Notes: generated by a model from the sequence alone, not told the origin. 64,000 nucleotides of DNA from a virus (IMGVR_UViG_3300010372_000004:1-64000), one strand, 5' to 3'; positions 3,647-6,124 are shown, counted from the stretch's first letter. Made by a program: numbers and translations.

Positions 3647-4138
3647 TTAGCCCTCTAAAGTCATGTGTTCATTATAATCAAAATTCTCAGGGATACCATA
3701 CTCTTGTTTGATGTTTAAAATAATTTCTTTCATTGCCTGAACATAAGTGTCATATAGCTCAAAATCGAAATTTAATTTTTGAAGCTGTTCAGTGACCAAT
3801 TTGTTGAATAACACAAAATCTAAACTACCAAAAGTTTTTGTAAGACTTTCAATGGATGCAGTTAAATGTGCCATACTTGATACTGTTGAGTTTTCCAATT
3901 TTTTTACTTGTTCTTCTTCAGAATCTTTTGGATTCCATAAGTTCCCTTCAAGCATCACTAAAAAATCTTTGGCTTGTTTTTCTGTTTGAATTGTTGTATT
4001 TACTGCCATTTTAATTGGACCCAAGACAGCATCTACACCTTGTAATTGTATGTGACTTAAAAACATATTCATGGAGATAGCCACGTTGGTAGCCAATACT
4101 TCTTCTGTGATTTCACTTGGGTTTGGATTTAAGTTCAT
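3647..4138 (-). CDS. Hypothetical protein
   Basis: 163-aa acidic helical ORF, AAGGA RBS. Confidence 0.8.
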   Translation of the reverse strand: MNLNPNPSEITEEVLATNVAISMNMFLSHIQLQGVDAVLGPIKMAVNTTIQTEKQAKDFLVMLEGNLWNPKDSEEEQVKKLENSTVSSMAHLTASIESLTKTFGSLDFVLFNKLVTEQLQKLNFDFELYDTYVQAMKEIILNIKQEYGIPENFDYNEHMTLEG

Positions 4139-4157
4139 GGAGGTTTCCTTCAGATAT

Positions 4158-4184
4158 AAGAAAAACCTGAATATATCAGGTTTT
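4158..4184 (-). terminator. Terminator after tRNA
   Basis: AAAACCTGA-tatat-TCAGGTTTT followed by further U residues on the minus strand. Confidence 0.65.
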
Positions 4185-4238
4185 CGTTTAGTTTACTTCA
4201 ATTTTATTTTGGATTCAAAAATAGAATAACCAAGAAAA

Positions 4239-4314
4239 TGGCTGCTTCAACACGGTTCGAACGTGTGACCCACAGATTAACAGTCTGCTGCTCTACCAAC
4301 TGAGCTATGAAGCA
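4239..4314 (-). tRNA. tRNA-Asn (GTT), CCA encoded
   Basis: 76 nt; acceptor TGCTTCA/TGAAGCA, G73, CCA; D arm GCTCAGTTGGTAGAGC; anticodon loop CT-GTT-AA; T loop TTCGAAC. Confidence 0.97.
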
Positions 4315-4316
4315 AT

Positions 4317-5220
4317 AAACATAAGCCTTGTGATTTACCAGCCTTGGCTTCAGCTGTAGATTTTTACATCAAACTGACTTGCAAATCAGTTTGAACATTG
4401 GTCTTACCCAATTTAGGAAAGTCGCCCTAAATCACAAGCTTATATTTACTTAGTGGTACGTTCTCCAATCGGCTGACTAGACCAATTTGGGTTTTTACAC
4501 TGGATAATAGCTAGTTACCAATGTTCTGGGAATAAACCGTTGAAAATTCCCTCATGCAGTGAGATGTAGAATAATCACCTAACTGAAGCACTCGCCACAG
4601 GTTTGTAATCTTCTTGCACCCCGATCTGGTTCGTCAAAGAACATACCACTAAGTAAACATCTTTAAGAAATCTTCAAGGTTACGGTTATGGCTTTCCGCT
4701 TACCTAGAGTCAAAAGCCAATTATGCACTCTGCCTTTCGGTCTGAAAATTTCTTAAAGATATTTGGACATGAACACATAGGGTTCTACTAAATTCGTTAC
4801 CGAAATTAAAGCTGTGTCCACAGCTTGGTTAAAACCTAAATTTTAACAGTGATTAAGTCACTAGCTGCCTTTTATTGTCCATTAGGCTATCGACGTTCAC
4901 TCACTTTGTAATAAAACAATCAAATGGGTGATTGCTTCAAAGCTCTGGAACATTTAAGAAAATCACTTGTAAGCTTTTCACTTACTTGCTGATTTGGTTT
5001 GTATGCAGTCCCCAAACAGGCGATGCTTGTTACCAAGCTGGTAGCCACAGACTATTGTAGAAAGTCTTAACCATATAGGGATTCGGGCTTTTCTACTCAT
5101 TTGTGATTTTCTTGGAAACGATTTTGTTACTCTATCAAGAACACACTTTTCAGCTTTACTTATCAAGGAACACCAAAATCGTTTCCAAGAAAATCGAACT
5201 GCTGATTTCTCAGCAGTTCG
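4317..5220 (-). ncRNA. Array of about six structured RNA domains upstream of tRNA-Asn
   Basis: Abutting 11-24 bp closing stems; imperfect positions are G-U on the minus strand; GNRA-capped inner hairpins. Confidence 0.7.
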
Positions 5221-5234
5221 TCTTCATGTGACCA

Positions 5235-5263
5235 AGATTATTATAGAAAACAAAATCCGTCAA
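5235..5263 (-). promoter_or_regulatory. Sigma70-like promoter for the ncRNA/tRNA unit
   Basis: TTGACG-17 nt-TAATCT on the minus strand. Confidence 0.6.
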
Positions 5264-5376
5264 CCACGTTTTTCATTTTCTTTTTCCTCTTTCCGTTTTT
5301 GGCGTTTATCATATAAATAAATTCCTATACGAAACAAGGCTTTAGCTGCGTCAATAATAAGTTCTCGTTTGTTCAT
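5260..5376 (-). CDS. 38-aa cationic amphipathic peptide, candidate lysis accessory
   Basis: MNKRELIIDAAKALFRIGIYLYDKRQKRKEEKENEKRG; ATG 7 nt after the endolysin stop; below ORF-track cutoff. Confidence 0.65.
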   Translation of the reverse strand: MNKRELIIDAAKALFRIGIYLYDKRQKRKEEKENEKRG

Positions 5377-5383
5377 AATTTAA

Positions 5384-6124
5384 TCAATACCCTTTGTTTT
5401 TAAACTTTAAACACGCCTTTGCAATTTTAACATCATAGTTAAATTTAGCATACTGTGAACCATTATAGCCTTTGGCAAAAGGTACACAATTTTCTGCAGA
5501 ACCATTTATTTTTAGAAAAGCAGATTTTAAATTGTTGGCAATAATATACTTTACCAATAAGTCATAGTGATTACTTTCTTCAGAAACCAAGGAGAACATC
5601 ATGTCCCAAGGTGTTTTAAAACCAAGTGTTTTGTAATGAAAACCCATCACCTGAAATTTACCCATTGATACTGACATGAATGCAGCAAGAGGGTCATACT
5701 CACACGCCCGAAGTAATTTTTCCCAGCTGTCGTTTATGTCATTTTTATTTGCATCAATGGTGTAATTTCCACCGCTTGGGTAATTAAAGAAAGTAGACTT
5801 TGGTGCAGTTTTATCATCATTATATGTCCAGAATTTGTGTCGTTCATATAATATTTTTACATGCCCTGTATCATACCAACCGAAACCCCCTGACTCCACT
5901 TCTGCTACAGCTCGGATTCTGGCTGTGCCTGTGTTATCGCCTAAAGTAAGAGAAAAATCTTCAAGTTGTGCATCAGTCACAGCCTTGGCTTTGAGATCAG
6001 CAAATAATTTATAAGTTGCTTCTTTAGTGGCTTTACCAATAATACCATCAGCACCAGAATTACCTATGAAACAACCCTTGGACAACAACCAATTTTGGTA
6101 ATCAACACGTGTTTTTTTAGACAT
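5384..6124 (-). CDS. Endolysin: N-terminal peptidoglycan-binding-like segment plus N-acetylmuramidase (DUF3380-type)
   Basis: ADGIIGKAT; AVAEVESGG, ILYERHKF, SMGKFQVMGFHY, FAKGYNG. Start at 6124 preferred over 6142 on RBS spacing. Confidence 0.9.
   Translation of the reverse strand: MSKKTRVDYQNWLLSKGCFIGNSGADGIIGKATKEATYKLFADLKAKAVTDAQLEDFSLTLGDNTGTARIRAVAEVESGGFGWYDTGHVKILYERHKFWTYNDDKTAPKSTFFNYPSGGNYTIDANKNDINDSWEKLLRACEYDPLAAFMSVSMGKFQVMGFHYKTLGFKTPWDMMFSLVSEESNHYDLLVKYIIANNLKSAFLKINGSAENCVPFAKGYNGSQYAKFNYDVKIAKACLKFKNKGY

What the first reader, a model, noticed from the sequence alone, without database searches (positions are those of the whole stretch)
4317..5220. Polycistronic chain of long-stem-closed structured RNAs ending in tRNA-Asn
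Seen (minus strand, downstream of a TTGACG-17-TAATCT promoter): a GAAA-capped 11-bp hairpin (5195-5220), then abutting domains E6 5105-5195 (22-bp perfect stem), E5 4956-5113, E4 4769-4900, E3 4655-4764 (22 bp), E2 4445-4657 (about 24 bp), E1 4317-4447 (about 20 bp), then the tRNA and a terminator. Stem imperfections are G-U on the minus strand, and inner hairpins often end in GAAA/GTAA. The interiors are unrelated to each other, so this is not a repeat. Inference: an operon of distinct small RNAs cut from one precursor (RNase III-sized stems, RNase P at the tRNA), possibly decoys or sponges for host defence or regulatory proteins. Best candidate in the window for an undescribed system.
Basis: partly seen in the sequence, partly recalled or inferred. 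Interest (0 to 1): 0.85.

Follow-up and report, generated by a model that had tools for sequence, protein, structure and literature searches.

The report
Modular structured-RNA operon before phage tRNA
A phage carries a 0.9-kb protein-free operon of separately folded RNA cassettes ending in a tRNA gene, and one cassette belongs to a widespread, uncatalogued phage RNA family with a nearly invariant 25-base loop whose function is unknown.

Summary
On the minus strand, 5220-4317 contains a leader hairpin and six abutting stem-closed domains, then tRNA-Asn (4314-4239) and a terminator. Three closing stems are 22-27 bp. All 12 non-Watson-Crick positions in stems of 22 bp or more (window and Mystique-group relatives) are G.U on the sense strand, so the selection acts on RNA. 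Rfam 15 matches only the tRNA.

New here: domain E5 (5113-4956) belongs to a widespread phage RNA family absent from Rfam and from the papers searched. It has a covarying hairpin around a near-invariant 25-nt loop (GCCCGWAUCCCUNUAUGGUUAAGAC), a second helix holding a swappable insert, and a T-arm-like hairpin. Members usually lie in tRNA clusters. They occur in Acinetobacter siphophages, Ackermannviridae and many uncultured phages. E4, E2 and E1 have homologues with compensatory changes in three, one and one close relatives. No homologue of E3 or the long form of E6 was found. Close relatives carry different cassette sets.

Best reading: a polycistronic stable-RNA/tRNA operon of exchangeable cassettes. 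The long stems probably act as processing or stability stalks, possibly cut by RNase III. This is inferred, not shown, and function is unknown. The scan found this family earlier on other DNA (e1-5873969) and a similar stalk-cassette layout (e1-5318426).

The parts
5235..5263 (-). Promoter-like site: TTGACG (5263-5258), 17-nt spacer, TAATCT (5240-5235). The -35 box overlaps the stop codon of the 38-aa ORF.
   Evidence: Read from the sequence. TTGACG and TATAATAATCT are conserved in L008 and a similar pair occurs in L009, while the spacer diverges. The consensus scan did not list it.
5195..5220 (-). Leader hairpin: 11 bp, GAAA loop, followed by AUUUUCUU. It could be a 5' stabiliser and/or the terminator of the lysis genes.
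   Evidence: z -7.2. One G-C to A-U compensatory pair against L008. Listed as terminator-like.
5105..5195 (-). E6: cassette closed by a perfect 22-bp stem.
   Evidence: z -6.6. L008 has only a 36-nt mini-hairpin here, a 32-nt deletion. The last 9 nt of its 3' arm also form the 5' strand of the E5 closing stem.
4956..5113 (-). E5: member of a widespread phage RNA family. P0 5113-5103/4966-4956; AAUGAG 5101-5096; P1 5095-5089/5063-5058; invariant loop 5088-5064; P2 5050-5045/4997-4989 around an insert with a GUAA hairpin; P3 4985-4981/4973-4969 with loop UGAAAAG.
   Evidence: Covariance model R1 scores 66 bits, E 3e-15.
4901..4955 (-). Linker. It contains a 15-nt stretch (4945-4931) complementary to the 5' acceptor/D-arm strand of tRNA-Asn (4316-4302).
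   Evidence: pair I4: 15 nt, 93% complementary. The whole-region fold uses it as a long-range helix. It is weaker in L008.
4769..4900 (-). E4: multi-hairpin cassette with a short (7-bp) closing stem.
   Evidence: Homologues in L009, L008 and L104 with compensatory changes in two hairpins. Its energy z-score alone is weak, -2.0.
4655..4764 (-). E3: cassette closed by a 22-23-bp stem. Both mismatches are G.U in the sense strand.
   Evidence: z -5.0. No homologue was found, so support comes from this sequence alone.
4442..4660 (-). E2: cassette of about 215 nt closed by a 23-27-bp stem.
   Evidence: z -5.3. The homologue in L104 gives 51 consensus pairs, 10 with changes on both sides and none broken. 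One internal arm is replaced.
4317..4447 (-). E1: cassette closed by a stem of about 20 bp, ending 2 nt before the tRNA.
   Evidence: z -5.3. The homologue in L008 gives 37 pairs, 7 compensatory and none broken.
4239..4314 (-). tRNA-Asn (GUU).
   Evidence: ARAGORN. Rfam tRNA, 67.8 bits.
4161..4185 (-). Intrinsic-terminator-like hairpin that ends the unit.

Best explanation
The stretch is a polycistronic stable-RNA operon of a virulent-type phage. It lies between the lysis genes and the replication genes. A promoter at about 5263-5235 would drive one precursor. That precursor holds a leader hairpin, six independently folding non-coding RNA cassettes and tRNA-Asn, and stops at the 4185-4161 terminator. 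The cassettes are exchangeable modules, since close relatives carry different subsets. One of them, E5, is a member of a widespread, uncatalogued phage RNA family. The family has a four-helix, cloverleaf-like frame: an optional closing stem, a hairpin that presents a near-invariant 25-nt loop, a helix that tolerates any insert, and a 5-bp/7-nt T-arm-like hairpin. Members usually sit among phage tRNA genes. Inferred, not shown: the 20-27-bp closing stems act like the leader-trailer stalks of rRNA operons. They would mark each cassette for excision, most likely by host RNase III, with RNase P cutting at the tRNA 5' end, and would leave base-paired ends that stabilise the product. Also inferred: the invariant E5 loop is a binding surface for a factor conserved across many hosts, most plausibly part of the tRNA or translation machinery.
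For: Non-coding: no ORF exceeds 62 aa, and a 32-nt indel against L008 lies inside the longest ORF. RNA-level selection on the tRNA strand: the G.U against A.C asymmetry and stronger folds on the minus strand. Unit boundaries: promoter boxes conserved while the spacer varies, plus a terminator.

E5 family: a 17-nt core pattern gave 24 IMG/VR loci. About 22 of them extend to a profile match with E between 1e-15 and 1e-5. The same pattern gave only 2 real matches among 42 hits in prokaryote genomes. The 25-nt loop occurs in 45 further metagenome loci, 36 of them distinct, and blastn found 104 GenBank phage records, none annotated at that site.

On an alignment not fitted to the structure, 86% of cells pair against 61% in shuffles. 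The covariation score is 0.66 against 0.21 (0 of 500 shuffles reach it), and slid controls stay at or below 0.14. Changes on both sides occur in 7 of 8 P1 pairs, 4 of 4 inner P2 pairs and 4 of 5 P3 pairs. There are 27 distinct P3 stems among 33 non-redundant members. Same-strand tRNAs lie within 2.5 kb in 16 of 28 loci and never on the opposite strand; four members start 4-11 nt after a tRNA.

Other cassettes: E4, E2, E1 and the leader hairpin show compensatory changes in relatives. Modularity: L009 and L104 lack E5 but keep E4 (plus E2 in L104). L008 has E5, E4 and E1 plus a tRNA-like element. Stalk-closed modules of 17-23 bp also occur in Ackermannviridae tRNA islands, one of them directly 5' of the E5 homologue in Ag3. 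Contigs from RNA libraries of three studies match parts of 4489-5113, and one spans exactly 4961-5113. This is weak support only.
Against: No end-mapped RNA data exist. RNA-library contigs may derive from DNA and cannot show ends or levels. RNase III cleavage is inferred only from helix length. Neighbouring stems share 6-11 nt, so they cannot all form fully at once. The leader hairpin with its U-tract looks like a terminator sitting directly after the promoter. E3 and the long E6 have no comparative support. The closing stem P0 is clear in only about half of the E5 family. No target for the invariant loop was found.
Confidence: 0.7

Rival explanations
1. The region works as one large multi-domain 'ornate' RNA of about 0.9 kb, as a single folded or oligomeric particle linked to its tRNA, in the manner of GOLLD or ROOL. 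It is not a set of small RNAs cut apart.
For: It is adjacent to a tRNA in a phage, has many GNRA-capped hairpins, and has one conserved domain next to variable ones. GOLLD is described the same way, with tRNAs sometimes in its linker (PMC12286853). A 15-nt long-range pairing between 4945-4931 and the tRNA 5' strand closes E4-E1 in the minimum-energy fold.
Against: Cassettes are present or absent independently in close relatives. E5-family RNAs occur alone elsewhere, with their own terminators or between tRNAs. No GOLLD or ROOL match appears even at E<=10. The long-range pairing is weaker in L008.
Confidence: 0.13
2. The palindromes act at the DNA level. They could be a replication origin, recombination or packaging sites, or remnants of small mobile elements with terminal inverted repeats. 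Any RNA folding would be incidental.
For: Junction hexamers AAATAT/ATGTTT recur, and a GATTTTCTT-like word recurs at cassette borders. Cassette content differs between relatives. One contig joins 4953 to 4661 across a 9-nt repeat, as recombination between border repeats would.
Against: Non-Watson-Crick positions in the long stems are G.U on one strand only, 12 to 0 in stems of 22 bp or more. A DNA cruciform would not select for this. Interiors show compensatory changes, including G.U intermediates. The unit has a promoter, a tRNA and a terminator on that same strand. The border word is only modestly enriched (41 found against 28 expected in the whole window).
Confidence: 0.05
3. The region is a long cis-acting leader that controls expression or maturation of tRNA-Asn, or read-through into the downstream early genes. 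It would not be a set of trans-acting RNAs.
For: A terminator-like hairpin follows the promoter directly. A segment is complementary to the tRNA 5' strand. Neighbouring stems are mutually exclusive, which suits a switch.
Against: In the Mystique group the tRNA comes first and the cassettes follow it. E5-family RNAs occur without any tRNA nearby. L009 expresses the same tRNA from the same promoter type with far fewer cassettes.
Confidence: 0.07

Closest known systems
Phage T4 species 1 and species 2 RNAs (rnaC, rnaD) of the T4 tRNA cluster
   Same: They are small stable non-coding RNAs of unknown function, co-located on the same strand as phage tRNA genes and cut from the same precursor (T4 annotation). 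rnaD starts with AAUGAG right after the CCA of tRNA-Arg, the same hexamer that precedes P1 in E5.
   Different: No detectable homology: the family model R1 finds nothing in the T4 tRNA region at E<=10. T4 has two RNAs without long closing stalks and without the 25-nt loop.
GOLLD and ROOL large ornate RNAs of phages and prophages
   Same: They are phage-borne, often beside tRNA islands, highly structured, and of unknown function. GOLLD has a conserved part next to a variable part (PMC12286853).
   Different: No Rfam match even at E<=10. Here the locus is a chain of independently exchangeable cassettes, and the conserved unit is only about 150-320 nt.
Leader-trailer processing stalks of bacterial rRNA operons and RNase III sites of T7 early RNA (textbook knowledge)
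   Same: Flanking sequences pair into helices of about 20 bp or more around a structured RNA inside a polycistronic precursor that also carries tRNAs. This matches the length and position of the E6, E3, E2 and E1 stems.
   Different: Cleavage has not been shown here. The stems are near-perfect rather than carrying the internal loops typical of T7 sites. Neighbouring stalks share their outermost 6-11 nt.
tRNA and tRNA-like domains (tmRNA tRNA-like domain, bacterial Y RNA YrlA; PMC4201824 listed)
   Same: E5 has a four-way frame. Its ends are paired (P0) and a 5-bp stem with a 7-nt loop lies directly 5' of the closing strand. That loop is closed by G-C in 28 of 33 members and has U at position 1 and A at position 5, as in a T arm. 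The family lives among tRNAs.
   Different: ARAGORN and the Rfam tRNA model do not call it. It has no CCA end, and P1 carries a 25-nt loop instead of a D loop. Part of the U1/A5 count was selected by my own search pattern.

Membership tests
Unnamed phage RNA family defined here (GGUUAAGAC-loop RNA; E5) | A 25-nt loop GCCCGWAUCCCUNUAUGGUUAAGAC closed by a covarying helix P1 | tested here: met
   Window 5088-5064 is flanked by 5095-5089/5063-5058. Model R1 scores 66 bits, E 3e-15. Seven of 8 P1 pairs covary.
Unnamed phage RNA family defined here (GGUUAAGAC-loop RNA; E5) | Helix P2 (YNRG-UGG with CCA-AAY-CYNR) enclosing a variable insert, followed by hairpin P3 with loop UGRAAAG | tested here: met
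   Window P2 is 5050-5045/4997-4989 and P3 is 4985-4969. All 4 inner P2 pairs and 4 of 5 P3 pairs covary.
Unnamed phage RNA family defined here (GGUUAAGAC-loop RNA; E5) | Location in phage DNA, typically on the strand of neighbouring tRNA genes | tested here: met
   tRNA-Asn lies 724 nt downstream on the same strand. Sixteen of 28 loci have same-strand tRNAs and none has opposite-strand tRNAs.
GOLLD / ROOL (Rfam) | A match to the curated covariance model | tested here: not met
   cmscan of 4100-5400 at E<=10 lists only the tRNA and chance miRNA-like hairpin matches. The gathering scan of the whole window finds the tRNA only.
tRNA (RF00005) | A cloverleaf recognised by the Rfam or ARAGORN models | tested here: not met
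   Only 4239-4314 is called. None of E1-E6 is.
T4 rnaC/rnaD | Sequence or structure homology to the T4 RNAs | tested here: not met
   R1 gives no hit in T4 68000-75000 at E<=10. Only the hexamer AAUGAG is shared. No model of rnaC or rnaD themselves was built.
RNase III processing stalk | A continuous helix of about 20 bp or more formed by sequences flanking the released RNA | tested here: met
   Stems of 22, 22-23, 23-27 and about 20 bp. The length of about 20 bp is kept through compensatory changes in the E1 and E2 homologues.
RNase III processing stalk | Staggered double-strand cleavage in the stalk, dependent on rnc | not testable with these tools
   Only assembled contigs of RNA libraries were available, and they cannot show ends.

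The most novel reading that the evidence does not exclude
The E5-family RNA is an active RNA, not a passive scaffold. Its invariant 25-nt loop and conserved junctions (AWUGAG, CAAUAGU, CCAAAY) would form either a catalytic core or a decoy. As a catalytic core it would be a new self-cleaving or processing ribozyme class that frees neighbouring tRNAs and cassettes, as theta ribozymes do 3' of phage tRNAs. As a decoy it would mimic the tRNA elbow and capture a host tRNA-directed enzyme or anti-phage tRNA nuclease. The stalk-closed cassettes around it would then be a general, exchangeable phage toolkit of such RNAs.
Probability: 0.12. Interest if true: 0.9.

Novelty: new variant of a known kind. 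Interest (0 to 1): 0.65.

Why it matters
Phage tRNA islands are known to hold enigmatic RNAs (T4 rnaC/rnaD, GOLLD, ROOL) whose functions are still open. This locus adds two things. First, it adds a well-supported new RNA family with an almost invariant 25-nt loop. The family is present in cultured, tractable phages (Kuttervirus and Agtrevirus on E. coli, Salmonella and Shigella, and Acinetobacter phages Mystique and EAb13), yet it is annotated nowhere; some records instead call doubtful small ORFs over it. Second, it gives a clear example of stalk-closed RNA cassettes that are swapped between close relatives. That suggests phages trade small structured RNAs much as they trade tRNA genes. Both points can be tested directly by Northern blots or end-mapping, rnc mutants, deletions and pull-downs.

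Tried and rejected
Only the 68-nt 5' half was modelled (R1).
- Homology to T4 rnaC/rnaD: no hit.
- The invariant loop as antisense or mimic of host RNA: blastn against all complete E. coli genomes found nothing. Duplex energies against E. coli 16S, 23S, 5S and three tRNAs were no better than shuffles, except one marginal 16S site in a variable region (p about 0.02). A 9-nt identity to 23S is within chance.
- Tertiary contacts by mutual information over 33 non-redundant members: only P1 and P3 stood out.
- Literature: full-text searches for the loop sequence, for tRNA-island RNAs and for Ackermannviridae non-coding RNAs gave nothing relevant. The supplement of the survey of 10,006 candidate viral RNAs is not held, so I cannot exclude that the motif is listed there.
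- Iteron or border-word idea: GATTTTCTTAAA with up to 2 mismatches occurs 41 times against 28 expected in the window. This is too weak to build on.
- E4 pattern scan: 17 of 21 IMG/VR hits were chance matches in coding DNA. Only L104 was a new homologue.
- L080 matched a loop pattern but not the model, so it is taken as chance.
- RNA-library contigs do not cover parts of the region or most flanking genes in three of four runs.
- The contig that joins 4953 to 4661 may be a deletion variant, or a reverse-transcription or assembly jump. This is unresolved.
- BLAST of a T4-sized-contig member against GenBank phages found nothing.

Full report
**Setting.** The window is the first 64 kb of a 74.7-kb IMG/VR virus record. 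On the minus strand the gene order is:
- a 1451-aa tail/neck-like protein
- small ORFs
- endolysin (6142-5384)
- a 38-aa ORF (5376-5260)
- the flagged region
- tRNA-Asn
- a terminator
- a 163-aa ORF
- DNA polymerase

The region therefore lies between the lysis genes and the replication genes.

**Observation.**
- The leader hairpin, E6, E3, E2 and E1 fold far better than dinucleotide shuffles: z from -5.0 to -7.2, with 0 of 200 shuffles as good.
- E5 is moderate (z -2.9) and E4 is weak (z -2.0).
- The repeat finder recovers a perfect 22-bp stem and stems of 23 and 22 bp at 91%. With G.U allowed they reach 22, 23 and 27 bp on the minus strand but break into 13-14-bp pieces on the plus strand.
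- I counted transition mismatches in all long inverted repeats of the window and three relatives. There are 24 G.U against 6 A.C in the sense strand, and 12 against 0 for stems of 22 bp or more. This points to selection on an RNA of the tRNA strand, not on a DNA palindrome.
- Interiors share only 11-17-nt words. There is no ORF above 62 aa. Rfam matches only tRNA-Asn, both at gathering scores and at E<=10.

One refinement: neighbouring stems overlap.
- The last 9 nt of the E6 3' arm are also the 5' strand of the E5 closing stem.
- AUGUUU is shared by E3 and E2, and AAAUAU by E2 and E1.
- The outermost pairs of adjacent stalks therefore exclude each other. The same three-strand arrangement, with different sequences, surrounds the E5 homologue in the Mystique group.

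**Transcription unit.** TTGACG(5263-5258)-17-TAATCT(5240-5235) was not listed by the consensus scan. However, TTGACG and TATAATAATCT are conserved in L008, and a similar pair occurs in L009, while the spacer has diverged. The hairpin at 5220-5195 shows one G-C to A-U compensatory pair against L008. The scan also flags it as terminator-like, so it may close the lysis transcript, protect the 5' end of the RNA operon, or both. A terminator-like hairpin follows the tRNA at 4185-4161.

**E5 is a member of a widespread family.**
- Only window 5102-4967 aligns to the Acinetobacter phages Mystique, EAb13, TCUP2199 and fJoAci01, at about 73% identity and with visible compensatory changes.
- Scanning IMG/VR for a 17-nt core gave 24 loci. 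About 22 of them match a profile of the whole domain far beyond the seed.
- The same pattern in 185,579 prokaryote genomes gave 42 hits, of which only 2 are real.
- The 25-nt loop with 23 specified bases, where fewer than one chance hit is expected by my estimate, gave 45 further metagenome loci, 36 of them distinct.
- blastn found it in 104 GenBank phage records: 71 Salmonella, 15 Escherichia, 5 Shigella, 5 Acinetobacter, 3 Vibrio, 2 Aeromonas, 2 Gamaleyavirus and 1 Enterococcus phage records. The three checked (Agtrevirus AG3, Tedavirus, Campanilevirus) are Ackermannviridae. None is annotated as an RNA at that site.

**Family anatomy**:
- an optional closing stem P0
- the motif AWUGAG
- helix P1 around the loop GCCCGWAUCCCUNUAUGGUUAAGAC
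- the junction CAAUAGU
- helix P2, which encloses an insert of 25-190 nt
- CCAAAY
- a 5-bp hairpin P3 with loop UGRAAAG, closed by G-C in 28 of 33 members

**Family covariation.** I used a MAFFT alignment of 21 members that was not fitted to the structure.
- 86% of cells pair, against 61% in shuffles.
- The covariation score is 0.66 against 0.21 (0 of 500 shuffles reach it). Slid controls give 0.14 or less.
- Changes on both sides occur in 7 of 8 P1 pairs, 4 of 4 inner P2 pairs and 4 of 5 P3 pairs.
- A covariance model of the 5' half finds exactly one copy per locus. The window scores 66 bits. There is no hit in the T4 tRNA cluster.
- Sixteen of 28 loci have tRNAs within 2.5 kb, always on the same strand. 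Four members start 4-11 nt after a tRNA.
- Rfam finds only tRNAs in 22 related loci.

**The other cassettes.**
- E4 has homologues in L009, L008 and L104, with compensatory changes in two hairpins.
- E2 has a homologue in L104: 51 consensus pairs, 10 changed on both sides, none broken. One internal arm is replaced.
- E1 has a homologue in L008: 37 pairs, 7 compensatory.
- No relative was found for E3 or the long E6. L008 has a 36-nt hairpin in place of E6.

Cassette content by phage:

| Phage | Cassette content |
|---|---|
| Window | E6, E5, E4, E3, E2, E1, tRNA-Asn |
| L008 | mini-E6, E5, a weak tRNA-like element (36 bits), E4, E1, then three tRNAs |
| L009 | E4, then two tRNAs |
| L104 | E4, E2, then two tRNAs |
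| Mystique group | tRNA-Asn first, then about 1.1-1.4 kb of cassettes with E5 near the end |

 The cassettes are independent, exchangeable units.

In the Mystique group the closing stems begin CAAUAUUUA and end UAAAUGUUG. In the window they begin AAAUAU and end AUGUUU. They share an AAUAU/AUGUU end with a conserved U.G pair. That looks like a recognition or recombination signal, but I could not test this. Stalk-closed modules of 17-23 bp also occur in the tRNA islands of Ag3 and phiA8-29, one of them directly 5' of the Ag3 E5 homologue.

**Expression.** Near-identical DNA occurs in groundwater, wastewater and other metagenomes from 15 studies. Contigs from RNA libraries of three studies match parts of 4489-5113, and one spans exactly 4961-5113, the E5 domain. 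The tool warns that such libraries can contain DNA and that contigs show neither ends nor levels, so this is weak support only. One contig, with no mismatch to the window, joins 4953 directly to 4661 across a 9-nt repeat (UUUCUUAAA) and so skips E4 and E3. This is either a natural deletion variant or a reverse-transcription or assembly jump.

**Mechanism.**
- Shown: a non-coding, strand-specific, structurally constrained set of RNA modules between a promoter-like site and a terminator, together with a tRNA.
- Inferred: the precursor is cut into cassettes at the stems of about 20 bp or more (RNase III size, as in rRNA operons), with RNase P cutting at the tRNA. The paired ends stabilise the products.
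- Inferred more weakly: the invariant E5 loop binds a factor conserved across hosts. Tests for complementarity or identity to E. coli rRNAs and tRNAs were negative.

**Comparison and novelty.** The closest known cases are T4 rnaC/rnaD, GOLLD and ROOL, rRNA processing stalks, and tRNA-like domains. None passes a membership test here. The kind is known: enigmatic structured RNAs in phage tRNA islands. What appears undescribed in Rfam 15 and in the papers searched is the E5 family and the chain of exchangeable stalk-closed cassettes. Earlier notes of this scan reached the same family on another genome (e1-5873969) and a similar stalk-cassette layout (e1-5318426). I rederived the family from the window itself, and I found stalk-closed modules in Ackermannviridae loci on my own; I did not examine either of those genomes.

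Noticed in passing
window 4931-4945 and 4302-4316: A 15-nt stretch in the E5-E4 linker is 93% complementary to the 5' acceptor/D-arm strand of tRNA-Asn. It also resembles the 3' acceptor end of that tRNA. It may be a relic tRNA 3' half or a long-range precursor helix, and it is weaker in L008.
   Followed up: partly
window 4661/4953 (RNA-library contig): A contig identical to the window joins E5 directly to E2 across a 9-nt repeat UUUCUUAAA, skipping the 291 nt that hold E4 and E3. It could be a deletion variant, or a reverse-transcription or assembly jump.
   Followed up: no
window 5260-5376 (-): A 38-aa ORF lies directly after the endolysin, and its stop codon overlaps the -35 box of the RNA operon. 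A comparable 50-aa ORF follows the endolysin in the Mystique-group phages. It has no PHROG match.
   Followed up: no
L008 5353-5422: A weak tRNA match (36 bits, not called by ARAGORN) sits among the RNA cassettes of the closest relative, at the place where the window has other cassettes. It may be a degenerate or non-canonical tRNA.
   Followed up: no
L132 1058-2390 and L028 9168-10517: In one subfamily the E5-family RNA, with its own terminator, is followed on the same strand by a 355-aa ORF. In L132 this ORF matches Pfam OrfB_IS605 and Cas12f1-like_TNB (TnpB-like); L028 has ORFs of the same lengths (355 and 295 aa) that were not scanned. Other members of the subfamily lack it, so it is probably an IS insertion at the terminator.
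   Followed up: partly
L132, L138, L149 (metagenome contigs of 1.86 Mb, 1.54 Mb and 0.58 Mb): The exact 25-nt loop also occurs on very large contigs whose neighbouring ORFs mostly lack Pfam matches. These could be prophages, cellular genomes or giant viruses, so 'phage-only' may be too strict.
   Followed up: partly
L077 1164-1244 (Aeromonas phage phiA8-29): A module closed by a 21-bp stalk begins within the ACCA 3' end of the annotated tRNA-Leu, so the tRNA 3' end forms part of the stalk.
   Followed up: no
L001 and L002 (GenBank records of phages Mystique and EAb13): Several small 'hypothetical protein' CDS are annotated across the non-coding cassette region, including over the E5 homologue. 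These are very likely false gene calls.
   Followed up: partly
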